DNA from: Lingula anatina
Taxonomy: Eukaryota > Animalia > Brachiopoda
Length of the DNA: 64,000 bases
Direction of reading: 5' to 3'
Assembly (NCBI GenBank): GCA_051362555.1
Contig: CM120646.1
Location: 16,430,001-16,494,000 of the forward strand
A model generated the notes under the pieces. The model saw nothing but the letters and a program-made list of their open reading frames with translations. It made no database searches and had not been told where the DNA came from. This document shows positions 9,045-61,949 of this stretch, piece by piece. The position numbers and the translations under genes are program-made. The first letter of the stretch is position 1, and every line of letters starts with the position of its first letter.

Positions 9045-9206
9045 TATCCAGAGATATTTTCTGATAGTCTTTCATATTATCTTTGTTAATCCATCTGACC
9101 TTTTTGACTGTCTTCTGACAAAAAAAAAAGTATATACCAGTCAGTGTAAACTTGAAAATCTGATTGTCTTTCGACAGACCAAGAAGACGGCCTCAATCCA
9201 CACCTG
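9045..9206 (+). mobile_element. MITE family B, copy 1 (5'-eroded)
   Basis: atccagagatatttt...tgtaaacttgaaaatctga...agaagacggcctcaatc..cctg matches copies at 56113 and 57668. Confidence 0.8.
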
Positions 9207-9976
9207 TTATCATGTATGTGGAATTAAACATTTCACCTTTATTGACTAACTTATTAAAAGTCTTTCCAAAAAAAAAAAAAAAATACTGGCAGACAAAATG
9301 TCCTGAAAATACAGCTGTCCTCACGCAAGCTATGCGTGGGAAGCTTGGCATACATCAACTTCTTGGAAATCATAAATATCAAAACTCATAATTAATTAAC
9401 TAGATATGCCTGTTTTTTATGAATAATTTCTAAAAGCATATATCACCAGCATAAACTTCTTCTTATGTCTCGTCAATGACCTTCATTGAATTGCTCTTCC
9501 ACAAAAAATTTAAGTTAACCAATTTAAGGAAGAAGAAAATATCTTCATTAACCATCTTCCCTCAAACCAGCCTTTTATTATTATTATTTTTTTTCATTAT
9601 TTTTTTTAGGGGAGGGGGACATTTGTACAAATTTTTTAACACATGACATAACTTTAACTGCGTCAACTCAATACCTTACTACATATATTCCAAAAAGAAC
9701 ATTTAATGCTTAAGATTATGAAGGGCGCAAGAAAGCAACGAAGAAAGACAATGGGGAAACATTAGAAAGTGGATAAGCTGTTGTTTCATCAGTGTTTAAA
9801 ATCCCAGCTTTCACCACATACAACACTTCTAAAAGTCCTTGAGATAAAAAGGGAGTTTGAAATATTGCTAAGAGTCTACATTTCTCACCCTCCCCCTCCA
9901 ATTTTTTACTCATCATCTCTTTCATTAAGTCTCCTATCATGATATTTCATATCACTAGGAAATGGTTGAACTCCCA

Positions 9977-14577: not shown

Positions 14578-14792
14578 GACCCCATTCCCAGAGATTAGAT
14601 CTATCTACTTTAGATCGACCTAACTCCCTGAGGGTTCACGCTAAATAGCTGTCAGCCGAGCGGGCACGAAAGTTAATTACCCCCTTACAGCTTGTAGTAG
14701 GCTGGATGGACATTTAAGCCGGATTATCTGTCAGTAATCTAGTGAGACTCCTCGCAGGGATAGATCGATCTAAAAGCTCTGGGAATACGCCC
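14578..14792. mobile_element. PIF/Harbinger-like MITE family A, copy 1
   Basis: TAA flanks at 14575-77 and 14793-95; inverted ends attcccagag / ctctgggaat; internal tagatcgacctaactccctg and gagactc..cagggatagatcgatc shared with copies at 56281 and 59479. Confidence 0.8.
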
Positions 14793-27300: not shown

Positions 27301-28419
27301 CAAACTCAAATTCAAATCAAATATTTTGTCTAGTGTCCTTGAATTAAGTTCAAATTCAAAAGCGTTCGATAACACACACATATATATATAGTGAAGGCAG
27401 CAGGATGTGTGTCGTAAAGAAAGGATGGAATGTGGGTGTGGGTGTGGGTGTGGGCAGGCACAGGCACTGGAGAGTAAAATAGTCCTAAAATTCAGTCAGG
27501 AAGTGATAACAAGTGCATAAAGAATACCATCTCACACATTTACCACTACTTGCTTTCCTTTATTCCCCTTGTTTCTATAACAAGTTTCTTTTCATTTATT
27601 TATTTCTTTTATATATTCAGTGATCATATCAATGTACCAACATTCTTTTTTAAAAATGTTCATCTCTAATTTGCATTATATCTTGATATGTGGAGCAATT
27701 CGCAGAAAAATTGAATTCAACTTTTATCTCCATCAATAAAAAATATTTGCTAATATATAGTTTAGACTGTAAAAATAAACAAACAAATATACCTGATTCT
27801 TTTAAGAAGCATTCTGTTGGTGAGCAATAAGGGTGGAAGACAAAAACAAAATATCTGGCATGTCTACATAATTGCCACAAGGACACCGAAAGAATCAATA
27901 TTAAGGTGATGAATGACAGTAGAGGTCAACCAATGAAAATGACACTAAAAGCAGCATGTTTGCCTGGAAGCCAATCACAATACAGCATACCCTGGTGTTT
28001 GAATAGTGTCAGCTCTTACAACACACACCAGAGCAAAGGTTTCGTACCCAGTTTTTTTTTTTTTTTTCTTAAAGAGCAAGGTGAAAAGAAAGAAGGAAAG
28101 ACAACTAGTTTGTTACTACAAATAAAGAATAGAAAAAAATTACTTAAGATCAACATTTTCATCAGCAATTTGTTTATCTTTTATAATAGCAATTGCTGTA
28201 TGTGATTTCATCTTTTTTATCCTTTTTCTTTTTGCAACTGAATCACCAAATCTCCAAAATATTCTTTTAATAATAGCAAAATCTTTAAATCACTTTTCTC
28301 TGTTTTTCAACATACTGCTCTTGAAAACTGTAGCAAAAGAAAATATAACTTTTCTAAAATAAGTTAATTTTCAATCGCAGCATTCAACATATTTTTTAAT
28401 CAAAAGCATTCAGTATGAC

Positions 28420-31400
28420 TATTACATATTAGATGATGCCGTGGGATAATGCAGTATCTATAATGCAGATCACTCCAAATCTAAACAGCTCACGTATGAC
28501 TGAGTTCAGACCTCATTCTTCCAGCTTTCTTGATGACATTCAGCATAAAGACCGCATAATGTGTCGCAATGCGTGTGCGCAGTCTCCGTCTGCGCAGAAT
28601 CACGGAGGCCAACACTCTCAAGCTCATTGCTACATTATGTATACTCCAACTAAATCTGATAAAAGTTTCATGAAGAATCTAAGAAATAATTTTTTTCCAC
28701 TTAATGTATCAATCCAAATCAATCGATTCAACTTCTTTGAAAAAAAAAATTAAACTGTGTACAGTCTCGGCCCACCATCACAATGTTAAGTCGCCTTCCG
28801 ATTTATTAAAATAGATAAACATCAAAAGATTAGTTACAAAAACAGTTTAACCTCTTAGTTTTCCTATCATTTGACATTGTTAAAAATAAGTAGAATCTCT
28901 ATAATATGATATACTCTGTTTCCAGATAATTTATTCTGCAAAACACTCTATTATTATTCAAGACTATTCAAATGGTTTCAATTCACCATAACCAAGATAT
29001 CGACAAAGCCTTCCAAAGCCTTGCAAAATAAATATATATATATATATTTTTTTTTTTTCTATAAAATATCTTTGGCATTAATGAATATTTTTTTCTAATC
29101 AAAATCAACTAAGAATTGAGTCAATGGAATTCTTTCTAAGATGCCAAATTTTCGAAGAAATGAAGAACATTTCTGACAACTTTACAATCTACCTATGCTT
29201 CTCAAGAATGAACAAATATTCTAATTTCGAAAATTGGAATATGATACTCTTTTCCTGGCAAAACATCTCTTCTTTAGCACCAATAAGTTCAATCAAAACT
29301 GGTCATTTTCAATCTTCTTTGGTCATGCTTTTTTGACCCTGCTAGACAAGTTTCTTTCCATTTTGTTTTGATTGAATATTGTGGCCAAAAACTGTTATTT
29401 CAGTAGATGCCCTTGTGAGAAGAACATAAAAAGCGCCTTTTACCAAAGGTTTTTCTCGACTCTGCGCATTCTACTTTAGACATGATGGGCACTCTTTGCA
29501 CACATTGTTATGTGCACATACCACCTTTTATCTGTTACTAGATATGGGCTATGAATGAACCTTCACTTCATTTATGTCTTCAGCCTTTCTTGTAAAATTT
29601 AAGCTGAGTTCATCTCTCCATTTTTGACTTTCCATTTTGACATTATAATGGCCACAGACGGACACTTGTTTGGCCATTTCTTACCATTAATCTGTTATAT
29701 TAGGACCAGCTCTGATTTATGCAATTCTCCACCTTAATCAGACTCATGCAAATGAAACTTGTTAAAAAAAAAAAAAAGAAGGCGGCAACACAAGATACAA
29801 TTCTTTTGTGAATCGTGAAATAAAATTTATGTGCGCATGGGCAGTGCATGCCGCATGTACGGGGGCTTCTCAAACGATTGCGACGAGAGAAAATCCAACC
29901 CTTTTTTATCTAGAAGAAGAGACAAAACTTTAAAACTAGGTAATATGCCTCCTGGATGCTTACCTGGTCTTAACAAGAGAGGATATTCAATCAGACTGGA
30001 CATTCAATCAAACTGCATAGCTAAATCCTGCTATTTCATGTCAAACCAGCCAACAACTGAGGAGCCATTTGTTCCATACGGCAACATTTCCCTTCATTTC
30101 CAGAGTTTTAAACAAAGTATATGTGCGCACGCGCAAAGGACTTGAAAATAACGGTTCTCGTCTGCATACTTATCATACATGAAGTTCACGAGCCAGGGAC
30201 TGGACTATCCCAGTCACTCTTTCTCTTCTTAAATGTTATGAACAATAAAGATAGAGAGAGGTTGACTCTAAGTCTTCCTTGCTTCTCTGTCTACTGTCAA
30301 ACTAAGAAATGGCCCATTTGAAACCCAACTCAAATATTCTTTAAATTTTCACTTCAACAAAAATTCATGCGTGCGCATGCGCAACATATGCGACACGTAA
30401 AAGTTCACGCCTACTAACTAATCATATATGAAACCTCTATAAGAGAAGCATACAAGTACTCAACCATATTATTCTGGTGCATGGCATGATGTCAGAAAAA
30501 AATGATCCACTAGACTTGATTTCCATCCACTTGAACCAGGCTGGACAATCTATTGCTCGTCTTTAGTGCTAAATCACCAAAGGATGGCCAGTTGGCAGCA
30601 CACCCCAAAACTTCTTTCAATTCTCATTTAAACAAAATCATGCGCGCATGCGCTGTATGCAAAACGCTAACATTGCCCTCTTGCACATTACATATTAATG
30701 CAACCCCTACGTGTGCAGACAGACCAGTGCGCAACCTGCTTTTAAACATCTTAACATAAGACAAGACAGTTTACCTATCTCTCATGCCAACTACCACTAT
30801 CTACTCATACAAAAATGCCACATCTTTGGCAATCGTCAGGACAATCAAATGTTTCTATTCTTTTTACATCACCCTTGAATAACATTCCCGAGTCACAATA
30901 TACCCTATAGCATGAGCCAAGCTGATGTAACGGTTACATTAGAACTGACTGCATTCCAGTTTAAATTTGACCTCGTTTCCTCCAACATGCCAGACAAAAC
31001 AGTCCTCCAGATAAAAAAGCACTATGATTACATTTGACTTCATAACCTTGCTATTCTTATAGTCATAACCGTGTTCAGAGCACAAGCCATAAACCACATT
31101 TCCCATCTATCATGTACACCATGGTGTACTTAAAACCATGTATATTTAATCCAAGAGTGACAACACCAAGGGCCACGGCTCACTGAGTAACAATTAAAAT
31201 TTAAAATAGCTTACACCTCCGAGTTTTCACCTCTACTCCTATCACAAAGATTTAAGAACAGTAAGTGCATGCTTTACCTTAGTATTTATATGCTTGTTGT
31301 CATGACAGCCGCAGACCCAGACATTTCTCTCCCTCTATGCACCAGGCCTGGCATTCAAATGCAACCGTTTGCAGGCAGCGACTGTATAAGGATAATTGTA

Positions 31401-31700
31401 TGCATGCGCGCATGCGCATCTTGGACTACTTTCTTCAACAGCTTGAGACCCAGTCACTGGGATTTCTATTCTCTTTTGTCCCCTGCTCATTGGTGGAAAA
31501 CTTTGCACTATTCATTTTAAAAGCCATTTTTTCTCACCCTCTTTCTTTATTTCTTATTTTATTATAATTATTTTTTTATTTTATTTTATTTTTTTTTGTT
31601 GAATAAATTATAATTTGCTGCAGTGGCGTGTTTTCCAAATATGGGCAGATGTACAAGGTTAATGTATGCATGTGCGTGCGCACACTAACGGTCGTAGGCT
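28420..31700. other. CpG-enriched segment with recurrent GCGCATGCGC-like motifs; probable decayed large mobile element or gene
   Basis: Motifs near 28570, 29832, 30123, 30370, 30642, 31405 and 31672; intervening sequence looks coding-like but is broken by stops. Confidence 0.45.
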
Positions 31701-34700
31701 AGTGAAGATGTCTTAAATCTCGAGCATTATGTTTTATTACATTTCCTCCTATATTCACTTTCAACAAATTTTCTATTTGTATTGTAGGGGAAAAAAAAAG
31801 AAACGTGACAGATATTCTAATAACCACTTTTAACTCTTTCTCTGTTAACTTAAATATTTCACCAAAATTTAAACCACTATAAAAAATAGCACTTTTCAAA
31901 TCACTGATACATAATACAGGGGAAAAATGAGGCCATTTGAGCCTCATTTTCTTAAATTCCACTGTGGTTCCGATTATATAAATAATTTTTAAAGTTTAAT
32001 AGGGGCACTGCTTCATTTTTATCATATCCTTTTTCATGAGCTATGTTTACCCAAGGAATTAATTCTATGATCATTTAAATCAGACCACTGAAAAAATATA
32101 TATAAATCAATGAAATAATAAGAACTTAGTCCATAGACGGCACACCATCTATCTTTTAACTAATAGGACTAGCATACAATTGTAGTAAAACTTAAAAAAA
32201 AAAAAAACTTAAAAACATTGCAAAATTGATTTTGTTAAAAAAAAAAATAAAATAACCTTTGCCTATAATTTTCACATCTGAAGCTGCTGACCTAAAATTA
32301 CGTTTCAAAACCTGAAAATGTGAAGCCACTGAAGGATATTTAAATCACAGATTTTTTATTAATATAATAACAAACTTCTTCCTTTTATTTTGTATACAAT
32401 ACTTTTCCAATTTTCATGCATTTTAGTTGATTTTTTTTTTCAGTCAAACACAAAGCCTATAAAACCATTAATGAACATCACAATTACCTCAAAATTGAAC
32501 ATAAAGAAATGAACAAATATTCACACCATAACAATTAAAAAACTGAAATGAATAGATCAGTTTTATGAGGCATTTATTAACATAATCTGTGTACATGAAT
32601 CTGCACCCAGAATTTTCTGAGGACTGCAGTCTAGACAGATCTAATGATTGTTTCACACCTACTTTTACTGATTATCCATTATTCATCCCAATAATTCCCC
32701 ACCAGATCAAGTTTTAGAGTTAGACCTGCCTTTCCACTGGCAAAAGCCCAGTTTCCAGGATTACAGGTTCTCTTTTTTTCTCCAGGAAACACAGAAGATG
32801 GATTCAGAAAAAAAAAAACATCAATAAATGAGACTGGCTGCACTGGGAAATTCCAGAAGTTTAATTCAGTGGCCTCAACAGGGCTCACCCTCAACTAGAC
32901 TGATAGCAAGTCAATGTGGTAAATGGTGATCTTCCAAATTACACTCAGCATATTTCTGTTCCCTGCACACCAATGATTTTTCAATTCATCTAGGTGTAAA
33001 AATTCAACCTATGATCACTACACCTTTGCACCAAGACCACTTCAGCTAGCCGTTCTAGACACTTTTTTACTTGATACCAAAGTTTAAATAAATAAATAAA
33101 TAAACATCAGAAAAATTAAAAACGCAATCTCTAACACTGGTGCCATCTGGACTAAATTATGTTCAAAAGTTGTTCTTCAGATATGCATTTCAATAAGCTA
33201 ATGATATTAAAAGAAAAAGGTGACTACAACCTGAATGAAATTAGTTTCTTGTGCCAAGAATAAGCAAAATGTCTTATTTTACAATAAAAATCTTGAATTA
33301 TGCCTTACTGATAGCAACAATAAAAGCAATCATTAAAATAAGATATAAACAACTCAATTTGATATCATACTTCATTCTTGTATTTTCTCTATCTTTTCAA
33401 AAGGCTCAAGCAAATGAGCAATCCCAAACAAAATGAATACTACTGTCTGATGAAAAGTTTATGTTAAAAAATATATTGTAAAGGTAAATAACTGAAAAAA
33501 AATTATAACCAGGTCAGAATAATAACCAAAAATGTTGCCACTGAAGTAAGTTTTGAAACTACTGTAAGGTGCTGCCCTCTACATTCATAAAATAACACTA
33601 GCAACCACAGAATACAACACAAAAGCATATTCTAAATTTGACAGTTAAAAAAAGTTCTCGTGATTTATTACAAAGTGAGTAGTGCAAAAAAAAAATGCCC
33701 TCAACACACAATGAAATTATCTTTAAAATCTCAATTGGTAATCTTCTGAACTTAAAGCTTTATTTTTCATCAGGCTAAAATAACTACTAACATGACTCTC
33801 TGAGACTCGGAATGTAAGAGAAAACATCATGTTTACTATTTTCTTCTCTGGAACAACAGAGGAAAACTCTAACCCCGCCCCCTCCCCCCACAATTCATAC
33901 TAACCCAACCCAATTCCCCTGACTGTCTCCCGTGAAAGGGCAAGGTCAAACTCAGCAAGAGTGAAAAGACCAGTCACAATCATTTCAGAAACAATCAAAA
34001 ATAGCACAATCATACCTATGGACTGTACCTCCATATGACAATTGATCCAATTCACCGCTATCAAATCAACCACTTTACTAATTGCTCCATGCAGGAAGCA
34101 ACTATCTCATCTCTGTTAGTCCATTAAATTGTCAAACTCCAATGGGCTTACTCATACACGATTTTTGACTTAGCAAAACAGGTCTAAACTTCTAAGCACA
34201 TGCGATGTCAATTGGCTATAATTCTTTACCATAAAGTCCTTGGCGATCTCAGAGTGCTTTTGTAGTTGATTAAGAGGTAATTTGATCAATGATTTTTATT
34301 CACTAAATAAAACCATAGGATTAGTATGTGTGTGAGGCTGCTTCACTACCTAGGTGAAAATCATATTATTGGTATAGCAAGTCTGATCTTTATGACAGTG
34401 GTGCAGAGTCCTACATTTAACCTTGTGGTCCTCTGACAATAATTGCACTGTCTGGCTTTAGAGTCATTAATGCCAAATTCACTGTCAGTTATGTACATAA
34501 GAAATCAATGGCACAGGAAAGGATACAGACTCAGGGGGAAAGTATCAGGGACAGGCTTTGAAATAAGGTGCTGACATTGGCAACATGGTTTTAGCTTGTT
34601 AACATCTATTTATTTCCCAGCTATGGATAACATATCCAAGTCTTTAATTTTCCATCAGAAATGAATAAGATGATAAAATTCTCAGTTGTTTTACAAAACA

Positions 34701-36279
34701 TAACATAAAGTTCAATTTTTACCATAGTCATCTGACAATCTGTAAGGGGCATAGAAAATGAATAATGAAAGGTACTAATTTTCACATTTGGAGAAGTGTA
34801 CATCAAAAGTCCTCTACTGATCAATGGAATAAGTTATTGAGAGATGAACACAGTGACCAGGGGTATTCAGGGGCTTATTTCAGCTCTAAAGATGCTTATC
34901 ACACTTTTTAGATATAATTTAGGCCTTGGCAGGCTACAAATTTTGACCAAGCACCCTATGTCTGACCACTGCCAGTGTATTGATTGCATAACCAAATACC
35001 ACAATCAAGATGACAGTTGGGTATCTTTTTAAGATATAATTAAACATAATTTTGAGCTTGACCTGGAAACAGTCATTATTATGTCTTTCTTTTGTTTTCC
35101 CATAAAATCAATAGAAAGGGTTTGAAATGAACTGTGTGAGTCCTCTCTTGTGTTTAGCAGACCACTTCAAGTGGCTTACACCATAGTTTGGACAGCCCAT
35201 GCTGCCATGATATAACACTGTCTGCTATCAAGGGTCAGATTACATCAGTTACACAATGTACTGTGGCTACTGGTTTGTAGATGGAAATGAAGAGAGAGAG
35301 AGAGGGTATTTTTTAATTATTATTATTATTTTTTTTTTTTTTGTTGCCATATGTGTTTATGGAAAAAAGTCAAAAAAGAAGCAGTGTGCCTCTAGGGGTT
35401 TGCATCAATCAAATTCAAAGCCCAGAACCTGAACAACTGTCACTCGCTCATTGCCTCCCACCAAGCATGACCACAAGCCTGGCTGTGGTCAATGTGAGAG
35501 GACACTTGTGGCTTAATGGCATATCATCAGTACTTACAAATGACTTGATTACAAGGCAGTTAAAAGGGGCAGGTGCTATTATGTCACAGGTGTGAAAGTG
35601 ACTGACAGCTGCAATATGGCCAGGCTGTGGCCAGTCTGGACTGTAAATGACAGCAGTGACTTTAACCTCAGCCCAGGTAAATGGCAATGTGTACTGGTTC
35701 ATGTCACAGACAAGGCATACACAAAACTACATCTCACTCCTTCTAGTGAACCCACCAGTATACTCATTATGGCATACACATACTGCAAATAAGCAAATAA
35801 TGAACTCACCAGGTTGCTAATCACCTTTGTATTCAGGTAACAAATTTATGGTTTCAAGTTGCAAAACTGACTACATCCACACAGCATTCTGTTTTAGCCA
35901 TACAACAAAATAAGCAAATTCATAACCATTGTCACAGCTCTCATCAGTGTTAATATAACTAATGTTTACAGATCATGCAAAATTTATAACTAATATACTC
36001 TTTATTCTTTGTCTGATTGTCAGGTTGAGTTGGTCTATCTGCCAGTCTGTTTGTCCATCTCTTTACCCATCTCCAATTGTCTCTCTCTTTTTGAGCAAAA
36101 TGTTCATTAGCTTGGTGGTTTGATCATACAATAACAAAGTTCTTGAACACAAGCATTTTTCTACCGATGTTAGTCACATTGGCCATAAGATAAGAACAGT
36201 AGGGAATTTTAGTAGCTTGTGTTCAGTAACCTTATTATAGTGTCCCTCTTTTTGTCTGTCTGTATGTCTGCCTGCTTAC

Positions 36280-36400
36280 CTGCCTGTCTTTCAAATTTAC
36301 TTGTCAGATATGTCTGTCTCAAATGTCACAGAAACAAATCTCAGCCATCTAGCTTACATCACACACATATATATCTGAGGTATTAGGTTGTATAGGAAAG
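36280..36400 (-). ncRNA. Candidate non-coding exon (121 bp) containing a let-7-complementary site
   Basis: Minus strand tactaatactacttctgcag| acceptor with branch-like TACTAAT, and ggcag|gtaagc donor. Confidence 0.45.
36376..36395 (-). promoter_or_regulatory. Near-perfect let-7 target site on a minus-strand RNA
   Basis: Plus strand TGAGGTATTAGGTTGTATAG equals let-7 nt 1-20 (UGAGGUAGUAGGUUGUAUAG) except nt 8; no precursor hairpin is present. Confidence 0.6.
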
Positions 36401-36966
36401 CTGCAGAAGTAGTATTAGTATTCAAGCACAGTTCTCTAAAGTTGCAAAGGGGTTCAAAATCTGTCATATCTATTCTTTTATGTACAATATGTTCTTTTCT
36501 TCAGAGTGAATAATTCAATTTACTTGGGCATTGATTCCTGGTTACTATCTATAACTTTACCCAAAGAATATTTTCATATAAGTTTGACTATCAATTTTCA
36601 ACAAAATATTTTCCCACCAATTTGACTGCAATAGTATGTAGCAGTTAATGAGATAGTGAACATGCCATATTTGAGTTCAGCCAAATGTAGGTTATTTCCT
36701 AGCAATTGACATATGAGGTGCATGCCAGTGGGAGCCCTGGTTGTCTCCAGGTTGTAGTCGCAGCACACATGCTCCTTATGCTATTGCACTTAATATCATG
36801 CAATATACTACCACAATGTCAGCCCTATTGCCAAGGCAACACAAACTAGCAGGTCAGGGGACTATTGCACCACTACTAGTAGTTTTAACTCGACTACAAC
36901 AGACATTAACAGAAGCTTAATGACTTTTTTTTTACATTTTTTTAACAGAAATACAAAATACTTTAA

Positions 36967-37378: not shown

Positions 37379-38070
37379 TTCCCCTTGCAAATCAGCAATA
37401 CGCAAAAATAAAACTGGTTCTCTTAAAATGTTAATCATCTAGATAAAATGTTGAGGGGTATCCCATTTAAATGTTGTAATATATAAAATCACCAGTTTAT
37501 TTAAATTCTATCGAAGGCTATATTTTTGAAAGTGCTAAAAGAAGTCTTGCATCAAATAATGCAGATAATATTCTATTTAATTAGCATAAATTCAATAAAA
37601 GAAGAAAAGTGCTCTATATATTCAAGACATACATTCAAGAAATTGCAAAATTGTACAGATGCCTGAATGGGTACAAATATTTCATGTTTATATTCCGTTT
37701 AGATATTTTGTTACCTCAGTTAATGATTAAAAGCACCTTTCATTCAAACTTTTTAAGTATTTTATCACAATCCAAAGCTCACAAATTGTACTAAGAATAC
37801 ATTTGATTATATTTCTAACTATATTACAGACCAATGTTGTCACCAAAACTAAATTAGCCCGGTATTTATATTTTAATCTAAACTGCCTAGAGTATTTACA
37901 ATTTTTAATGAAGATTTACTTCTATGCAAAGGCGCATAGGCAATTAAACATAAATATTACAACCTAACTATACATATTTCAAATTAGTTTTTTTTTTTTT
38001 TTTTTTACTTAGATAATGAAATAAATAAACCAATCAGCTATATAAATGCTAATAATTACACTCAGCAATA

Positions 38071-38122
38071 ATATTAAAGTTTTGGCGATAGTTATAATAT
38101 TAACGTTTTGGCAACAGTTATA
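38071..38122. repeat. 26-bp tandem duplication x2
   Basis: atattaaagttttggcgatagttata / atattaacgttttggcaacagttata. Confidence 0.85.
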
Positions 38123-39139
38123 AATAAGAGCATAAACTCTAGAGTTTTAACAAAACTGAATTAGTAGAAAAGCCTATTTTTTAGAAAATCACGCATATTA
38201 TAAAATTTGCCCACCACCACCCTAAAAAGGCATGGTCTGGTCTTCACAAAATATGCAACTTAAAAAAAATACAGCATACTTCTCTTTTTTTTCTTTCTTG
38301 AGTGCAATTTTAAAGCTGTACATACATTGCATGATTTATTTTATGCTGAATAATATGTAACAGCATTTGTTTTATTTCAACAAAAGTTGATAATCATATC
38401 AAAAATAATGCAATTATTTTTTTATTGTGAGCAGCACAGGCCTTCTCATTTTAACTTGCATTTACCTCTCCATTTCCAATTTCATTCTTAGCATAATGAG
38501 CCTTTGCTCTTTTCTCATTCTTTGTTTCCATATAAATCATTTGCCAAAGCAGTCTTATTGATCTGCTCAATATTGAAATTATTAATAGCTTTCTTCAATA
38601 TGGATTTTGCTTTGAATCTATATTTTCTGCATAAACAGATATACTAACTTTATTAATTACAGAATGAAACCCAACAAAAATTACTGGGCAGAAGAGGTAA
38701 ATATTTTTTTATCTACTCCAGCACATAAGGCATTGATAAGGCATTAAAAAAAGAGATCCTTTTTCTTTTTTTTTTTTAATTTTTTTCCTCTCATTCCCAA
38801 TAAAAAATATAAAAAGGTACATTTATTATTTCCATATAAAGGTTGTTTTAATTCCAAGCAAGTTACAAATTAATAATTTCAGCTAAAAATCCAGTATCAG
38901 ATTGTGTACATTTTTCATGCTTATGTGTCACATTCACATACAGAAAACAATAACTGCGAAAGCACATTGGATCATTAACATACATTCCCTAAAAAGAATG
39001 AGGAATAAATCCTTCTCTTCAATAATAAAAAAAACCTTTTTATTAAAACTCCTAGTTTCCTATTTCTTTAAATCCCTTATGTAAAACCCATTATGACCTT
39101 GAAGAAAGTAGCATGTACTTAAACTTACAACGGTCAGGA

Positions 39140-40200
39140 TCATTTCATGTACATGTGAACACGTGAATGCGCAGACAGACGAGTGCGCATTCGCAAAGCT
39201 ACATTTAAAATGTTTGAATAGATTCGGTTATGCAGTGGTAAGAGTCTAACCTCCTTTTTCAGCTATCATGAAGATGTCTGGGTTACCGGACGACGCATGC
39301 GCACGCCGTAATGCATGTTGCACGCAGGCCATGTCTGGCATAAACACGTCGGAAAAAACAAGTGACTCACTTTTAAACCTCTGACATTTGAAATAATGCA
39401 AACCTTCGATAAGTTACTGTCAATGTAAGCCTGTATACATAATTGATAAAATAATAAATATACGTATTTCTGTTAATATATTCCTGCTTAAATATACATG
39501 ACACTGCATGTAGGCAGATTCCTACGCGACGGTACGTAGGCCTGGATCACGCCACCCTGATCAACTTGCCATTTCATAATGATCAACATCTTTTATACTT
39601 CTGTTCATCTATTCTCACCATTTACCACACAATTCAGTTCTATTTTCTGGATATGCACAAACAAACCACACTTTCGAATAAGAAAAAAAAAGCATGCATG
39701 CTCACCTCCCTTTTCCAAGGGGGCCAAAGGGTAGGGTTCTCATGACCTGCCTCTGCACAACTTTATGACCTAACTTGTTATGCGCGCAGCATGGTTCTAA
39801 GCTGACTCAAACTCTTAAAAAGTAGTCCCTTTTCCATGCATGTCTGTTAATTTATTCACAGAGAGTTCCATACCACTGCTACTTCAGTCTACACTCTTCC
39901 AACCATCCCGAAACATTTGTACAACATAATACTGGCTGAGAATTATCATATCAATTATAATTAGCTAAGATGTAATGGCCAAGAGCAAAGTGAATCAAAA
40001 ATAAACAAATGATAGCAAAGAAAAGGTAAAAAGACATAAGAAACATTTAAGATGCATGTGCTGGGCGCGTAACCTGTGCGCGCGGTTTAGAGATTCAGAC
40101 ACGACGCCATTTTGTTAAACAGAAAATGCAGACAACGCCCAAATCCATTTTCCCGCCTCACGCCAGTTCTTTCCCCCTATGAGCCCCCCAGTGTCTCCAC
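39140..40200 (-). promoter_or_regulatory. CpG-enriched motif cluster (NRF1-like, YY1, E2F); possible internal promoter
   Basis: gacgcatgcgcacg near 39292; CGCCATTTTG at 40105-40114; TTTCCCGCC at 40149-40157; inverted pair gaatgcgca/tgcgcattc at about 39165-39192. Confidence 0.35.
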
Positions 40201-40289
40201 TTACTATGCCAGACATAATAAATGGTTGACCTTCTAACTGCTTCATTTCATATCAACATTGCAGGATGTCAGATAAGCACAGTCACGTA

Positions 40290-40714
40290 CCTGATGTCTA
40301 CTTCAAGCTGCCAAATAAAAAGCTCTCCATTCTCTTCCACTTCATTCCTCAGGCGAGCAGCTCTATACAGCATGTCTGTGCTCTACTAGCCCTCAAGATC
40401 CTAGTCCAGGATATCATGGACTCCTTTTCCTTATACAGGATTTCTAGGAAGTACTGTTCAACAAAACACAAAGGCCAGTCGAGCTAGAAGTAAGACAGCA
40501 AGAACATGTCCAAGTTCCTCACAAAGAACCTCCTCTTCACAGGGTCGGTACTATCATCAGCGCTGTCCGCATGTCCGTCCATCATGGCAAGTGTTCCGTC
40601 TAGTGTGGAGGAAGAGGTTGGCTTGTAAGCAGTGCTGCCGCCACCACATGGAATATGAATGTGTCTGGAACCACGTGATTCCACCATGTCCGCTACCACT
40701 GGCCACATAATCAA
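40290..40714 (-). pseudogene. Decayed coding-like frame of unknown origin (possibly transposon or viral)
   Basis: The 76-aa ORF 40714-40484 continues in frame past a stop: DPVKRRFFVRNLDMFLLSYF*LDWPLCFVEQYFLEILYKEKESMISWTRILRASRAQTCCIELLA*GMKWKRMESFLFGSLK*; GC content higher than flanks. Confidence 0.4.
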
Positions 40715-43700
40715 CCTAACTTCACAGGGGGATCGCCAGGAAAGGAACCCACATAGACACTGCCTTTGGACTCATCTTCATGAAAGAGCTGGTTTTCATG
40801 CCTTTAAAAAACCTCCTAGAGATCTTTAATCCTTACACAAAAGATCCGCATGTTCTCTCCTCAGTCACCCTTGTGTGGAAAGAAGATATATTGACCCGGA
40901 GGTTAAACTCTTAGACGCATGTCCGTTAGAATTCAAATTACCGCGTATGCAACAGCCAGTCTCAGTACCAACGTCGGCCATTACTTTAATGCTTTAAAAT
41001 AACTAGGACAGAAAAAAAAACAATAAAATGAAAAATAATACAATGCTCCTGTATTGTGTAGATTAAGTTTGCAGCAGAGGTCAAGGCTTAAACTAAATAT
41101 TACAAGACAAAAAATCAGGAACTAAAAAAAAAAAAACAAAAATGATAAACATCCAATGTTGGCACTTTATACAAATCCAGCAGTGGCTAGACTTAACACC
41201 AATGACAAAGAATGACAAAGAAAAAAATTAATATTCAATATTCCTGCTAATAATAAATCTCAAATCCTTATGCATGACCCCATCTACCCTTTTCACAATT
41301 CAGTTTCCCTGTCGTATTCAAGCTCTCATATATCAGTGACTCTCCCATCCATTAGCATGTGCCAATTATTCCCACCCAGGGCTCCTATATCTATTTGAAT
41401 ACCCAGGTTCTAGGATTGAAAATGGTTGTTTTGTCCCCTCTCTCTTTACTCGTTGTTTGCATCCCCTACCTGCCAGTCAGCGCCCTGTTTGGTGAACAAA
41501 AGCGAGCCTGAGAGCCTCAGACTGCCGTGAATGACCTGAATACTAAGGAGCTGACCTCTCAGCCTGTAGAAATAGGTCACTGTCTGGATGGCTGAAGAGA
41601 TAGGACTGCAGGCAGGCAGACCAAAAATATGGGAAAACTTAACATGTTGAACGCCCTGAATGTGGACATCATGACTGGTTGATGGTTCTACACAATATAC
41701 TTATTTCTATTACCACTTCTAAAAACTTCAGTGATTTTAAACCACACAAATGAGGAAAATGTCGCAGGGACAAAATGTCACCAACCTCTTGGAATTTTTG
41801 GCCTGCACAGACTTGGACCTTTGGGGTAGTAAAATCATGCTGCACAGCAGACCTGGGCTCAAAGACCTACAATGTGTTCCTTTAGGACCAAATTTTGGTT
41901 TCGAATGCCCTGAACAGGAATAAGTCTAACCTTCACCTGAGGCATCCCCCAACTACATTATACCCATCTTTCAGTACGAAACATAACATTTCCATCATTC
42001 TGCAACTGTTTGCAGGATATTCTTTGCTCATGGTGGTATAAGCTAAAAAGACAGACAGCAGGGGCAAGTATAAGTTTAAAAGAGAGAAACAAAAGGAGAA
42101 CCTGAACCTGTAGTCTTTATAGTTTATGGTCAGGAGAAAGACCTTCCCATTGTAATATACCCAATCAGATAAAGATCAACATAATCAATGACAAACTTGT
42201 AAAAAGTATGAGATCATACATATAATATCATTTGAATTCATTTAATGACACCGATTTTTTTTTTAAAACAAACCCTACCACCTCCCCCCCCCCGACCCCC
42301 TTGCTTTTGTATCCTTGGTTTTCCTGCCAGATGTTACTTCCACATTTAAAAAATTAAGGTCTGTGTCACACTAAATCAATACAGTCAAGACAGGTTGTCA
42401 TGAGTGTGTGTGTATGTGTTTTGTGCAAGTTGCTCTGCTTCACTCTTCAACCTGGCTGTGTTATATACATCCTCCCTGCTAGACCCTGGCACACTACTAC
42501 CCAGGCAGACCCAGGTCACTGAACAAGGGAATAGGAAATCAATACACCATGCTAAACCATCCCTCTAAGATCTTCAGGGCCATGACCATGAGTATCTCTG
42601 GGCAGGGCATCCATGTCTTGGATCTAAAATAATGAACAGGTGCCCCTGAGGCTGGTTGGATAATGAGCTGTATATTGATCTGCGTCTGTCTGCTGACCTC
42701 GGCTCTGTAAACAGATTAGGTTTGACCTCACAAGGTCAGCCAGACTATTGAAGTCTGAGTGCCGACTTGGGGCCCTCTGACTATCAAATGGGGCACATAA
42801 AACTGGATTTTTGCAATCAACACAGTCTTAATTTAAAGCTTGCTTGGCTTCTTATGTATGTGGCGAAGGCATTTGTGACATCCCCCTCCTTTTTTTCTTT
42901 TCAAAAATGTCCCTGGCTTGTTTTAACAGGTCTGGTGGTTTACTTAGATGACAGAAGCCAGCTCTATTTTGTACTAGTCATACATACCAGAGTCTAAGAG
43001 GAAAGACTGTGAAGCCTTTTCATAAAGCCAACCAATGAACAAAAATACATACAAGCACCTGTCATCATATAAACACTATTCCAATAAGACTGATATGAAA
43101 TATCAAAAAGACAGCTACCAAACAACTGGTGGGAAATGTTCCTTTAAACTGATTTGATCAAATTTTCATTTATTTTTCATTCATTGTTCATCTTTTATGT
43201 CATGTGTATCTTTCTGCAGACCATCAAACTTTTAAGACACTTATCACAATGTAAATGCTTCAATGCCCAATAACTATAATAAGTCATCATAACTTATTTT
43301 AAGGAAATAGTCTAACCAATCATAATTCCAACTTTTTTTTTTTTGTAAAATCAGTCTTTTGTCTTTACATCCTGAACATCATACGCCAACTTCCTCATTG
43401 CACATTTCAAAATAATATATCCAATTATGTTGTTCAGGTCATATTGTTAACACCACACATTTCTAGCCGCCATAAACCTCCAGGCACACGGTGCACTTTC
43501 TGCAGCATGACCTGTTATCAAACTGGTATGGTGTCTGCACCGTTTCCACTTCAACACCCTCAGGGTATTTTTATACATTCTTAAAATTTATTCATATATT
43601 TTATCACTGATTGTCAATATTACTCCTGAAAGAGTACATAAACAACAAGTATAAAACAGATCAATTTTTATTTCTTATATTTTTATCTTATTCATTCAGT

Positions 43701-47782: not shown

Positions 47783-48064
47783 GGCTGTGTTTAGAACAGA
47801 AGTTATCGTACTAGCAGGATCAATCTATCTCAGCAGCGATTCATGCTAAAGCACAGTCAATATAATCAGCTTAATTGTCTGGCATGTCCCCTTGTAACTT
47901 AAAGTACTTGGGTAAAGTCAGGAAACTTTGTGATGTTGATCATGTTGCTCTGCTAGCCAGAGTACCAGACAATAAAGCCGATTACATTGACAGGGCTTTT
48001 GCGAGGAATCCTGCTGAGATAGAGCGATCCTGCTAGAATGATTACTTCTATTCTAAACATAGCA
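47783..48064. mobile_element. Long-palindromic MITE, PIF/Harbinger-like
   Basis: Imperfect inverted arms of about 100 bp: gctgtgtttagaacagaagttatc..ctagcaggatc..tctatctcagcag vs ctgctgagataga..gatcctgctag..attacttctattctaaacatagc; CAA/TAA flanks. Confidence 0.8.
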
Positions 48065-50092: not shown

Positions 50093-50706
50093 CACCCTGA
50101 GCTTCAGAGCTAACTTGACACTAACCTTTTCACTGTAGCCTATCTCCATCGTGTCAAGTAACCTCTGACGAAAATAGTTTGACCTATTTTATATAAGCCA
50201 ATCGAATCCATGTTTCAAAATTTTTCACCAAAGTTTGGTGAAAACGCTGATTGGTTGATCGTCAATCGGCAATCCTCGGCTGATTCCGCAAGCTCCATAC
50301 TAACAACATAGTTATTGTCGAGTGCGGAGACATCCGAGTAGTTCCGAGTGGTTCCGAGTGCATAACCGTACACAAAGAAAGCATGGAGTATATCGGAATT
50401 GAAACCAGAGCAGTGTGATGCCCTGCATCATTATCTACTGAGGGATGATGTATTTTGCGTGCTGCCCACAGGTTACGGCAAGTCCCTGATATTCAGCCTT
50501 ATCTTTGATTGGTCCGGATTTGAACAAAGCGCGCTTTGACTCGTTCGCGTTCATTGGCTAGATCGTTCAATGAGTCATTGAGTGCGGGCTTTAAATTTGA
50601 TTGGCGGGCGGCGGGGGCACTCGAATCTGGTCAGAGCTTACTTGACACGATGGAGATAGGCTACAGTGAAAAGGTTAGTGTCAAGTTAGCTCTGAAGCTC
50701 AGGGTG
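50093..50706 (+). mobile_element. Young non-autonomous DNA transposon, 614 bp, about 77-bp TIRs, 8-bp TSD AAAAGGGC (AcademH-like candidate)
   Basis: TIR caccctgagcttcagagctaacttgacactaaccttttcactgtagcctatctccatcgtgtcaagtaa is perfect for 69 bp; TSD at 50085-50092 and 50707-50714; CpG-rich interior. Confidence 0.93.
50390..50494 (+). pseudogene. RecQ-family (SF2) helicase N-terminal fragment, Q motif plus Walker A
   Basis: Translates ISELKPEQCDALHHYLLRDDVFCVLPTGYGKSLIF, matching the RecQ pattern L(K/R)PxQ...D(V)F(x)xLPTGxGKSL. Confidence 0.85.
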
Positions 50707-56112: not shown

Positions 56113-56277
56113 CAGGGGCGCATCCAGAGATATTTTTTGAAAGTCTTCCAAATGATCTTTGTTGGGCCATCCTCCATTTTTGACCGTCGAAAGAAAAAAA
56201 TGAGATACTAGTCTATGTAAACTTGAAATTCTGACCATCTTCCTGAAGACCCAGAAGACGGCCTCAATCTGCCCCTG
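56113..56277 (+). mobile_element. MITE family B, copy 2 (full length, CAGGGGC...GCCCCTG ends)
   Basis: Inverted ends caggggcgcat / atctgcccctg; taagg on both flanks; homologous to copies at 9045 and 57668. Confidence 0.85.
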
Positions 56278-56280
56278 TAA

Positions 56281-56501
56281 GGGACCATTCCCACAGATAT
56301 TTGGATCGATCTATCTCCCTGGGAAGTCTCACAGAATTGTTTTTTATCAACTTAACCAGCTTAAATGTCTGTCACGCCTAGTTAAGCTGTTAGGGGGTAA
56401 TTATCTTTAGCCCCTAGCTGATTCGTTAGGCGTGACACACATTTAAGCAGGTTAGTTGATAGCAATTTGGTGAGACTCCCCAGGGAGTTAGACCGATCCA
56501 A
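56281..56501. mobile_element. PIF/Harbinger-like MITE family A, copy 2 (right end eroded)
   Basis: TAA|gggaccattcccacagatatttggatcgatctatctccctggg; internally palindromic; reverse complement of the copy ending at 59733. Confidence 0.85.
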
Positions 56502-57667: not shown

Positions 57668-57793
57668 GGCGGGGTGGATCCAGAGCTATTTTCTGACAGT
57701 CTTTCCAAATTATCTTTGTTGATCCATAGATACCCATCAATGTAAACTTGAAAATCTGACCATCTTCCAGAAGACAGCCTAAATATGGCCCCT
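57668..57793 (+). mobile_element. MITE family B, copy 3 (internally deleted)
   Basis: ggatccagagctattttctgacagtctttccaaattatctttgttg...tgtaaacttgaaaatctgaccatcttcc..gcccctg. Confidence 0.8.
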
Positions 57794-59478
57794 GGGTCAT
57801 TGCATGCACTACTGTAAAGCAAAAGTTGTGGGGAAGGTGGGGGGGGGGGGGGGGAGAAGGGGTGACAGCAGAGAAAGTCTCATATAGGTTCACTTCCATA
57901 TGAAAAGATAAAGGGACCCTTCACAATGAAGCTTCTCAATTAACACGCCTCCTCTTGTTTCAAACATACTCATATCATCTCCAGCTTTCCTATATTGTAC
58001 TCAATGCCAGTAGAAGGTGTGTTAGTCTATTAATCTGATTGCAATCGACGAATCCCCTTGGAGTTAACATGCATTAGCTAGTTTGACAAAATTAACTGTG
58101 AACTATCCCTAAGGATCTACAGAAATGACAATGCTCCTCTAAAATGCCCCCCCCCCCAACCCCTCAAAAGGCAAAACAAAACAACTGCTAAGACTACCTT
58201 TAAGTGCTGTATGAAGCTACTGATTGGAGAAAAAAGAAACAGATTTCATACAAGCTGGTTTAAATGCTTTCCTATCCAATCATACAAATTAATAAAAACC
58301 ACCAACCAGATGAATGTGAGTTTAAGGTAAATAGCTTACGATACAGAATCGGAGCTCACTTCTGCTTGCTCTAATAAGTTGTGCAATTCTGCCAAATCAA
58401 AATTTTGTGTCAAAACTGACAAATTGGCAAAAGCCTCATAACATTAATCATTTTCTTCAGTCAGAGCTTGTAGCCCAAAGTGATATCAACATTTGGCAAA
58501 AAATTTCTTTACACTTGTGTGGAGCCTAGAGAAGGTATCTAATCAGTAATCTCCAGTCTTCCCATATTGAAAGTGTGCACTCTTTATACAACAAAAGACT
58601 GCAAATATGTATTTGTTGAACCTGCAATAGCATCTGTTATATATATATGCTGCCTAGTGTGGCTGGCTATATTTGCTTGGTCTAAAGCAGGGGTTATGTA
58701 ATCATTAAGAGCATTAAGAGCTTAGCAGTGTGTTCATATAGCAGCCATATATCACCAGTGTTGTTACTGTCTGTATACCACCTGCTGTAGCACCAAGTGC
58801 AGACACTTCTAGCTGTAGACTACTAGAAAACCATATACCTTTCGAGACAATATATAAGGATAGAGTAATTCTCACTCTATCTATACAACCTGTAATACCC
58901 CCTTCCCTCCACCTTTCAACAGTCTAAATCCACCATAATATATTCCTCTTCCCTATCCCAGAAATGAACACCATTACTTCAAGTTTGAAATACAGGGAGA
59001 TTCCATCAAGAAAGCTAGTATGCCAAAGAGATGGGTATCTCTCCCCCCCCCCCCCCCCCCTTTTCAGGACCTGCACCATTCCCTATAGACATAAGCTTCC
59101 TGATAACTATATGGAACAATGACCATCATGTCCCTTTGCCAGATCTTTGGGTGCATTCAGGTTCAGACATTGTACCAACTGGGGCAATCCAACTCTGTGG
59201 GGACTTTTTTTTTTTTTGATAAAGTGCAATCACTGTAATCACTTTTACTGTCTGACACACTTACTCGAACAGCTAAGGGATAATTCAGCCGAGCACACAA
59301 GACAATTTTAACCATTAAATTTAAAATAACTATTAATTAAAATTACCCCCTGGCTGCTGGAGAAGGCATGTTGTATAATTAACAGAATTAACCTGATAAC
59401 ACTGATTGCAGTTTAGCGAAACTCTCCAGAGTTGAATCGACCCAGCTAGTAGAATGTCTGACTCTGAATGCAGTCTTA

Positions 59479-59733
59479 GACTGAGTTCCCATACTTAGAT
59501 CGACCCATCTGGATTGACCTAACTCCCTGGGGGTTCATGCTAAATTGCTATCAGCTTAAGAGGCTGAAATGTCTGTCACGCCTACTGAATCAGCTAGGGG
59601 TGAAGATAATTACCTCCTTACAGTTTTACTAGCCGTGACAGATGTTTAAGCTGGTAACCAGGTTAGTTTAATAGTCATTTAATGAGACTCCCCAGGGAGA
59701 TAGATCGATCCAAATATCTGTGGGAATGGTCCC
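59479..59733. mobile_element. PIF/Harbinger-like MITE family A, copy 3
   Basis: TTA flanks at 59476-78 and 59734-36; right end cagggagatagatcgatccaaatatctgtgggaatggtccc. Confidence 0.85.
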
Positions 59734-61949
59734 TTAGTGTGGTATGTCTTCAAGGCATTACAGCCATCACAAAAGGCCTCCAGTATTGCTGTAATCAAGA
59801 ATCTATTGTCATTTATCCAATTTGGGGGCTTGTTTTAAGCTGTACTATTAGATTCCACAATTTGGTGAAAAATGACTGGTACAGAGTAGGCTAACCTTCA
59901 TGGCACACTTACAGCGTTATATGTCACAATGTGTGAACTCTTTTTTTTTTAATGATTATCATAGCCTCATTTCCCCTTCTATCTATTATATCCACAAAAG
60001 CATTTTGTTATAACTTCCTGCTGCAATGCATACTAGTATGTCTGTCCTTTTTTTCTGAAGAAAGTGAACTACTGGTTCTATTGTTTTAGTTTTTTAATGA
60101 TAATAAACACTTACTGTCTGTCCTATACCTTTTCTCGATTATGGTATCTTTTTTTGCGCTATGTCCTTCTTATGTTTTTTTTTTTTCCTTCGTTTCTTTT
60201 TCATAAATAATCGGGAATAATTGTATCCTATTTATTCATGTATTTCCACATCTAAGCATACAGATGAGCAGTCATTTATATGCTCAATAATGCAACAGTC
60301 AGTCCTATGCACTATAAACCAAAATAATCAATAGTAAGCCATGGACAGGGCCTGCTAACCAGGAAACAGTTGTTAACAAAAGTGTACATTTAACCTTTTC
60401 AAATGTCATATTTCCCTTGAACAATGTGTCCTCATTAGTTTCTTGTCATTTAGATTTCTAGGTAACAGGATGATAATGGGGATAGGCTAATTTCCCAAAA
60501 GGACAAAGAAAACCGAGAAAAAAATAGAAAAAAGCACATTTGGTACATGTTGGATAAGATTTCAAAACCTTTCTTCTTTCAATTGATCCAGGTATGTGAA
60601 TAACTATGAACGCTTCTCAACTTTTCACTTTTCATAAAAAATGTAGCTTTTACAGGGCACTGAGAGCACTTTATTATTAATCAATATGTTACAATCATAA
60701 ATTATTACAAAACTTGATATGCCATGCTGCAGCATTTAAAATTAACAAACTATAAAAAATGATATAACCAAATAGTTTTATAACGCCAAAAGGAATTTTG
60801 CTCTGAAAAAATGAAATTATAAAGAAAAGGTATAAAAGTATGTGGTGTTTTCAGTCACTGATAAAGGTGAAACCGAATTTGGCAGTTGAGAGAAAATGTC
60901 ACAAATCTAATTTAAATGTGTTTCACTGAGTATTTTATGAAGATAATTTGACTATACCTTCAAGCAGGGTATTTATTTCAATATTAAAAAAAGTAGAACA
61001 CTTTAAGTTATAAGCCTAGAATATTGAAAAAATTAAGTCTTTAATGCATCCTTCACACGTTTTTATCGCAGTAGCTGCAACCAATTATTTTTAAAATTCC
61101 TCTTAAGGTAACATCATAAATATATTACCTATAATGATATGTTTGATCTACAAAAACAATATATATATATATATGTTAAAAGTTTTCTTTTTTTTCTTCT
61201 TTCGATATATGATTGTCAGAATTTTACTTTAACTTCTAAAAAGCAATTATTTGCAATAATAAATAATAGCTTTTTTTTTTAAATGTAGGAGTTTAAGTAC
61301 AATTTTGGCATCCATAATAAAAAAAATTAATGAAACTTTTAACATTAATAAGCCCTAGACATATCTGTAGTCCATTAAAATGTTTCATGAAAAAAAATTT
61401 GATACTGATTCTTTTCATTAAGCAACAGTAACTGCTGAAATGTCAGTTCTACCAAGTCACTTGTCTGCAATGCTAAATAACTGATGTTAATGGTTTAATT
61501 TTTTTTAACTTAAAGGAAAAGAATACAGTGGCATCATTGCCGTATACTTTTTTACAGTGCATGCTTTTGTCCACTGTCATGTTACATCATTTTTATGTTG
61601 TAGTAAAACTTACTGAAAAGTAAAAGATATTAATGTGAAGTGAGAATGCATTTAGAAATGCAACAGAATGGGGTATCAATCCATTTGGTCAATTAACTAG
61701 GTAAGGAGAGAATGACAGATAAACACATAACAAACACTAAGGAACTAATGGGTGGAGTAGGAAAATTCAATAATTGTATTCTTGTGGCAATGAAATCCTC
61801 TGTGCGACCTCTTAAACTTACAACTGAATAAAGGAATTGTGAGTACAATTCATTCCAAAATTGGATATTTTCATAATACCCATATTACACAAAATCCGTT
61901 GGGTTACTGTATAGTACAGAACCACAAAAGCTCCACTCTGTCATAGAGC

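What the first reader, a model, noticed from the sequence alone, without database searches (positions are those of the whole stretch)
36280..36400. Near-perfect let-7 complementary site inside a candidate non-coding exon (possible miRNA slicing, sponge or TDMD trigger)
Seen: plus strand 36376-36395 equals let-7 nt 1-20 with one change at nt 8. No star arm flanks it, so it is not a pre-let-7 hairpin. On the minus strand the site begins 5 nt after a plausible acceptor (TACTAAT...cttctgcag|) and a strong donor (cag|gtaagc) follows at 36280. A minus-strand RNA would pair let-7 nt 1-7 and 9-20, including slicing positions 10-11. Known: such extensive pairing is rare in animals and marks slicing or target-directed miRNA degradation, as for Cyrano/miR-7 and Drosophila Marge/miR-310. 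Inference: this could be an undescribed invertebrate let-7 regulatory RNA element.
Basis: partly seen in the sequence, partly recalled or inferred. Interest (0 to 1): 0.8.

Follow-up and report, generated by a model that had tools for sequence, protein, structure and literature searches.

The report
Lone let-7 match, probably coincidental
A 20-letter stretch of non-coding animal DNA matches the microRNA let-7 at 19 positions and sits between splice-like signals, but no RNA was seen over it and such matches arise by chance about once per 5 to 15 billion letters, so it is likely a coincidence, with a real minority chance of being a site that let-7 would cut.

Summary
Plus-strand 36376-36395 matches let-7 nt 1-20 except at nt 8, is single-copy in the window and forms no hairpin. 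On the minus strand it lies inside an exon-like stretch with a strong donor (rank 4 of 3795) and a middling acceptor (138 of 3851). Base skew also fits minus-strand transcription. Function is not shown. No read covered the exon in 4 of 4 RNA runs laid, a weak test because two runs had no read anywhere on the stretch. No homologous locus turned up. Chance gives 0.06-0.16 such matches per Gb for let-7 alone, and a bacterial genome carries the identical 20-mer. If the site works, its pairing (nt 1-7, 9-20) is the slicing type, as for miR-196/HOXB8. It is not the Cyrano type, where a 3-11 nt loop breaks pairing at nt 9-10. Odds: chance 0.5, slicing site in a rare exon 0.3, trigger or sponge 0.08, let-7 remnant 0.07. 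Conservation in related genomes would decide it and could not be run.

The parts
36376..36395 (-). 20-nt stretch complementary to let-7 nt 1-7 and 9-20 (G8 faces A); a cut, if any, is predicted between 36386 and 36385
   Evidence: let-7 sequence from locus L013
36280..36400 (-). 121-nt exon-like stretch, stops in all three frames, no supporting reads
   Evidence: splice scores; chance rate; zero depth and no joints in 4 of 4 runs
36401..36420 (-). acceptor-like region: TACTAAT (36420-36414, branch A 15 nt before the exon), short weak pyrimidine tract, CAG
   Evidence: acceptor rank 138 of 3851 AG sites, TACTAAY occurs 7 times on this strand
36274..36279 (-). strong donor-like site CAG|GTAAGC
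   Evidence: rank 4 of 3795 GT sites on the minus strand

Best explanation
The stretch matches let-7 at 19 of 20 positions, and it is likely a chance match in intron-like or intergenic DNA, next to a likely unused pseudo-exon, with no regulatory role. Shown: the match, its single copy in the window, the lack of a star arm, and the lack of reads in the runs laid. Inferred: the region is probably read on the minus strand as part of a long intron, which is removed in the nucleus, so let-7-loaded Argonaute would rarely meet the site.
For: Chance expectation is 0.06-0.16 per Gb for nt 1-20 and 0.19-0.59 for any offset, for this one microRNA (Markov orders 0-4); a reader knows dozens of microRNAs. 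Control without let-7: the pattern with nt 8 free hit 4 times in 596 Gb of prokaryote genomes, about 0.08-0.10 per Gb when scaled to any single mismatch, and locus L056 carries the identical 20-mer. In metagenomes 2 of 55 loci were hairpin-less nt-8 variants of the same look (L004, L028). Depth was zero over 36216-36900 and there were no joints in 4 of 4 runs. Exon-like pairs as good as this one: 7 on the minus strand against 6.6 in simulated sequence. No partner sites for miR-100 or miR-125 lie in the window (best 5 mismatches in 20). Functional sites of this kind are rare: 20 miRNAs slicing 24 transcripts in mammals (10.1101/2023.10.15.562437, passages).
Against: Only about 1.5% of the minus strand lies inside an exon-like pair this good, and the site does, on the strand that let-7 would pair. 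That strand is G/T-rich in 8 of 8 bins and has 6 strong donors against 1.2 expected, while the plus strand has 1 against 1.6 (threshold set after seeing the site's score). The one mismatch spares nt 2-7 and 9-13. Most of the site is predicted unpaired. The read test is weak: 4 of 9 runs, 6-25% of each read, tissues unknown, two runs with no read at all, and a sliced RNA would be scarce anyway. Conservation could not be tested.
Confidence: 0.5

Rival explanations
1. A functional slicing site. A rare or stage-restricted minus-strand RNA (a lncRNA, or a cassette exon of a large gene) would include the 121-nt exon, and let-7-loaded Argonaute would pair nt 2-7 and 9-20 and cut between 36386 and 36385, clearing the RNA once let-7 rises late in development. 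All steps after the pairing diagram are inferred.
For: The site lies in an exon-like pair covering about 1.5% of the strand. Skew and donor excess point to the same strand. AGO slicing needs unbroken pairing at g9-g13, which is met (PMC10338343, passages). Mismatches at positions 6-7 can leave slicing intact or speed it; position 8 was not covered in the passages seen. Precedent: let-7b-directed cleavage of mouse 2410001C21Rik (PMC3141239, passages).
Against: No read or joint over the exon. No homologous flank among 55 metagenome loci. The genome-wide chance rate is of the same order as, or above, my estimate of how often such real sites occur (the estimate is inference). Slicing ability of this animal's Argonaute is untested.
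Confidence: 0.3
2. A TDMD trigger or sponge that would lower let-7 levels.
For: Seed match (nt 2-7) plus 12 contiguous 3' pairs. Centrally paired RNAs can in some cases induce TDMD (PMC10899785, passages).
Against: No central loop. One site only: the neighbouring let-7-like stretch at about 36405-36423 gives -14.6 kcal/mol, outside the 14 best places on that strand. A sponge for an abundant microRNA must itself be abundant (established knowledge), and 0 reads bound the exon to roughly 2-3 FPKM in these samples if they are valid tests.
Confidence: 0.08
3. A decayed or intron-split let-7 gene copy on the plus strand.
For: The match starts exactly at let-7 nt 1. Real let-7 genes with the star arm 150-370 nt away exist (4 of 53 G8 loci). 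A gapped complement at 58881-58899 scores in the top 2-3% of controls (3 of 150 and 4 of 150).
Against: 53 of 55 metagenome matches have G8 and none has T8; nt 21-22 differ from all 53. No star arm within 400 nt (best -15.9 kcal/mol). No plus-strand place downstream comes within 5 mismatches of any of 23 real star arms, and by eye neither a donor after the arm nor an acceptor before 58881 looks usable. No miR-100 or miR-125 remnant.
Confidence: 0.07

Closest known systems
miR-196 site in HOXB8 and other AGO2-sliced mammalian targets (miR-151-5p/N4BP1, let-7b/2410001C21Rik; PMC3141239 passages; PMC4954961 abstract and section list)
   Same: Near-complete pairing through nt 9-13, so slicing-type geometry.
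   Different: Those sites are in expressed mRNAs, conserved, with mapped cuts. Here no transcript, conservation or cut is shown, and no protein-coding host was found.
TDMD triggers such as Cyrano/miR-7 and HSUR1/miR-27 (PMC10899785 passages); Marge/miR-310
   Same: Seed pairing plus long 3' pairing, in a non-coding setting.
   Different: Triggers usually have 3-11 unpaired nt that break pairing at nt 9-10; this site has one mismatch at nt 8 and full central pairing.
let-7 complementary site in C. elegans pri-let-7 and lin-41 3' UTR sites (recalled; one search gave search listings only)
   Same: let-7 site with strong 3' pairing.
   Different: Those are imperfect, bulged sites in known transcripts; no let-7, miR-100 or miR-125 gene lies in this window.
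let-7 precursor family (Rfam RF00027)
   Same: 19 of the first 20 nt of the 5p arm.
   Different: No star arm, seed-flanking G8 changed, nt 21-22 differ, no Rfam match even at E up to 10.

Membership tests
miRNA slicing target | Unbroken pairing to guide nt 9-13 with seed and 3' pairing | tested here: met
   Pairs nt 1-7 and 9-20, -28.6 kcal/mol; rule from PMC10338343 passages
miRNA slicing target | Site lies in an expressed, mature RNA of the right strand | tested here: inconclusive
   0 reads over the exon in 4 of 4 runs, 2 of them flagged as no test; skew favours minus-strand transcription
miRNA slicing target | Cut mapped opposite nt 10-11 | not testable with these tools
   No degradome or 5' RACE data
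miRNA slicing target | Site conserved above its flanks | not testable with these tools
   No genome held for the window or relatives; no homologous flanks in 55 metagenome loci
TDMD trigger | Seed pairing plus extensive 3' pairing | tested here: met
   6-mer seed nt 2-7 with A opposite nt 1; 12 pairs at nt 9-20
TDMD trigger | Central loop of 3-11 nt breaking pairing at nt 9-10 (typical, not absolute) | tested here: not met
   Single mismatch at nt 8; PMC10899785 passages
TDMD trigger | ZSWIM8-dependent loss of the miRNA | not testable with these tools
   Needs a knockout with small-RNA-seq
miRNA sponge | Many sites or high abundance | tested here: not met
   One strong site in 64 kb; no reads in the samples laid (weak)
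let-7 precursor (RF00027) | Hairpin with star arm | tested here: not met
let-7 precursor (RF00027) | Intact seed nt 2-8 | tested here: not met
   T at nt 8; 0 of 55 metagenome matches have it
Spliced internal exon | Donor and acceptor consensus | tested here: met
   Donor rank 4 of 3795, acceptor 138 of 3851, with approximate recalled weight matrices
Spliced internal exon | Junction reads | tested here: inconclusive
   No joints or loose ends at 36400 or 36280; depth too low to exclude a rare RNA

The most novel reading that the evidence does not exclude
A let-7-gated exon: a 121-nt cassette with stops in all frames that puts an almost perfect let-7 site into a long minus-strand transcript, so that let-7 slices every exon-containing copy once it switches on in development. 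That would explain why the exon is invisible in the RNA samples laid.
Probability: 0.25. Interest if true: 0.75.

Novelty: not a real feature. Interest (0 to 1): 0.33.

Why it matters
If it is chance, the lesson is practical: a 19-of-20 match to a famous microRNA looks overwhelming in one window but turns up at about 0.1 per Gb per microRNA, even in bacteria. If it is real, it would be a rare natural slicing target of let-7, carried in a non-coding exon. That would give a testable handle on why let-7 is conserved along its whole length, a point the acoel paper also raises (10.1101/2024.12.01.626237, passages). Seven literature searches listed no report of such a site in a non-coding exon; I saw listings only for most hits, and the library lacks most subscription journals.

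Tried and rejected
Sequencing-run search: no RNA holder listed; 9 raw-read runs were added by species label. Reads could be laid on 35400-36900 only, so exons elsewhere in the window and host-gene expression remain untested. No whole genome is held, so no genome-wide copy count or conservation test was possible. Host gene: 296 of the 404 stop-to-stop ORFs of 48 aa or more, plus 2 shorter ones, were scanned against Pfam and none reached a curated cut-off; 108 were not scanned, and short exons would be missed. The protein-looking ORF at 40487-40771 (minus) had no relative among 39 candidates, weak evidence; the Atlas gave no answer for it. Pattern scan of viral contigs: 0 matches. A C/D-box snoRNA reading of 36294-36373 (Rfam snoZ266, 19.1 bits against 43, E 1.4) was rejected: 7 such motif pairs occur in the window. 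A second let-7-like site at about 36405-36423 was rejected as weak. A distant star arm at 58881-58899 was rejected. Four look-ups of earlier scan findings gave nothing relevant: three were empty and one returned eight phage or archaeal-virus notes. No supplementary files were read.

Full report
Observation. Plus-strand 36376-36395 is TGAGGTATTAGGTTGTATAG. Mature let-7 taken from locus L013, an Rfam-confirmed let-7 hairpin, differs only at nt 8. The next best ungapped match in the window has 6 mismatches. The region does not fold into a hairpin (z +1.46), and Rfam finds nothing at gathering score in the window and no let-7 even at E up to 10 around the site. A minus-strand RNA would pair nt 1-7 and 9-20 at -28.6 kcal/mol; the next best place in 64 kb gives -21.8.

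Chance. Per window the match has probability 4e-6 to 1e-5. Per Gb the expectation is 0.06-0.16 for nt 1-20 and 0.19-0.59 over the three 20-nt offsets. An empirical control agrees: the pattern with nt 8 free occurs 4 times in 596 Gb of prokaryote genomes (two hits in one assembly), which scales to 0.08-0.10 per Gb for any single mismatch, and one hit, L056, is the identical 20-mer in a bacterium. These figures are for one microRNA; a reader can recognise many. The match alone therefore cannot carry the claim.

Setting. No protein-coding exon was found: 296 of 404 ORFs of 48 aa or more, plus 2 shorter ones, gave no Pfam hit above cut-off. No tested microRNA of the miR-100/let-7/miR-125 cluster lies in the window. 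The plus strand has C over G and A over T in 8 of 8 bins after masking repeats (z -1.9 to -8.0 and 0.7 to 6.8), the pattern expected from a long minus-strand transcription unit (established knowledge, inferred here). CpG is depleted, mostly 0.1-0.3 of expectation with peaks near 28-32, 38-42, 50-52 and 62-64 kb. The animal group was not determined, so 'invertebrate' is unverified.

The exon. With approximate recalled weight matrices the donor ranks 4 of 3795 and the acceptor 138 of 3851; the pair ranks 8th of 32 on the strand. Pairs this good occur 7 times against 6.6 in simulated sequence, so there is no excess, but they cover only about 1.5% of the strand. Strong donors alone are in excess on the minus strand (6 against 1.2; plus strand 1 against 1.6), with a threshold set after the fact. 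This is the best evidence for function: the site falls in a rare context on the right strand.

Expression. Four of the nine raw-read RNA runs were laid on 35400-36900: 12.4, 11.9, 9.5 and 11.1 million reads, 6% of X1, X3 and X4 and 25% of X7. Reads laid: 4, 0, 0 and 5. Depth was zero from 36216 to 36900 in all four, with no joints. X1's reads fit only in part near 36063-36164 and run on unlike the window, so they probably come from elsewhere. X7's reads lie at about 35400-35860 and 36114-36215 in both directions. X3 and X4 are flagged as no test. If the runs are valid, the exon is below roughly 2-3 FPKM in them. This speaks against an abundant sponge in these samples but not against a rare or sliced RNA.

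Relatives. The metagenome scan returned 55 loci: 53 with G at nt 8, one C, one A, none T. Of the 53, 49 pair 16-20 nt of the arm in a local hairpin and 4 have a star arm 150-370 nt downstream; 16 loci were checked with Rfam and 1 passed the let-7 cut-off. The two variants have no star arm and look like chance, as the bacterial ones do. No locus matched the window at E 0.01 or better. Conservation in related animals could not be tested.

Mechanism if real. AGO slicing needs unbroken pairing at g9-g13 (PMC10338343, passages), which holds. Mismatches at positions 6-7 can be neutral or helpful; the passages seen did not cover position 8 (10.1101/2023.10.15.562437). Validated TDMD triggers usually carry a 3-11 nt loop that breaks pairing at nt 9-10 and prevents cleavage, though centrally paired RNAs sometimes trigger decay (PMC10899785, passages). 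So the site would work like miR-196/HOXB8 rather than Cyrano. Slicing by let-7b has a mouse precedent (PMC3141239, passages), and cleavage of TUSC2 is reported (PMC4954961, abstract and section list).

Weighing (inference). Chance supplies about 0.1-0.3 such matches per Gb. Real near-perfect sites number a few dozen across all mammalian microRNAs, so perhaps 0.03 per microRNA per genome, and few are in small internal exons. The exon-like context, strand agreement and harmless mismatch position raise the odds several-fold; the after-the-fact choice of features and the empty read test lower them. I put chance at 0.5, a slicing site at 0.3, trigger or sponge at 0.08 and a let-7 remnant at 0.07. 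The label 'not a real feature' refers to function; the sequence match itself is real. One alignment to related genomes would settle most of this.

Noticed in passing
L003, L050, L052, L044 (let-7 match positions): Four let-7 genes in metagenome contigs whose star arm lies about 150-370 nt after the 5p arm. L003 and L050 share flanks and have complementary ends inside the long insert, suggesting extra-long precursors.
   Followed up: partly
window 50093-50706: Element with 92-nt inverted ends (91% complementary) enclosing a plus-strand helicase-like fragment at 50366-50536 with a TGYGKS motif (Pfam DEAD 21 bits, below cut-off 26); probably a non-autonomous transposon piece.
   Followed up: partly
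window 18680-18550, 52194-52091, 54963-54884, 53043-52968, 5041-4824 (minus): Other exon-like pairs with strong donors; with the site's stretch they could be exons of one long minus-strand non-coding transcript. No reads were laid on them.
   Followed up: partly
window 36294-36373 (minus): C-box-like and two CUGA motifs inside the exon-like stretch (Rfam snoZ266, E 1.4). A loose likeness of the stretch before the last CUGA to a guide for the 5' end of 18S rRNA is recalled, not tested.
   Followed up: partly
window 58881-58899 (plus): Gapped complement of the site, 17 of 19 columns, top 2-3% of controls, no splice or hairpin context.
   Followed up: yes
window 40270-40770 (minus): G+C-richer stretch with protein-looking frames broken by a stop and a frame change, ending at a good donor at 40291; no Pfam or database relative found.
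   Followed up: partly
window 28000-32000, 38000-42000: CpG-richer zones with several GCGCATGCG-type palindromic motifs (30373, 30644, 31408, 39294), resembling NRF1-type sites (name recalled); possible regulatory elements.
   Followed up: no
window 14613-14773, 47784-48063, 56278-56501, 59512-59736; 9046-9207, 56122-56278, 57728-57775: Two small dispersed repeat families, one palindromic and MITE-like.
   Followed up: no
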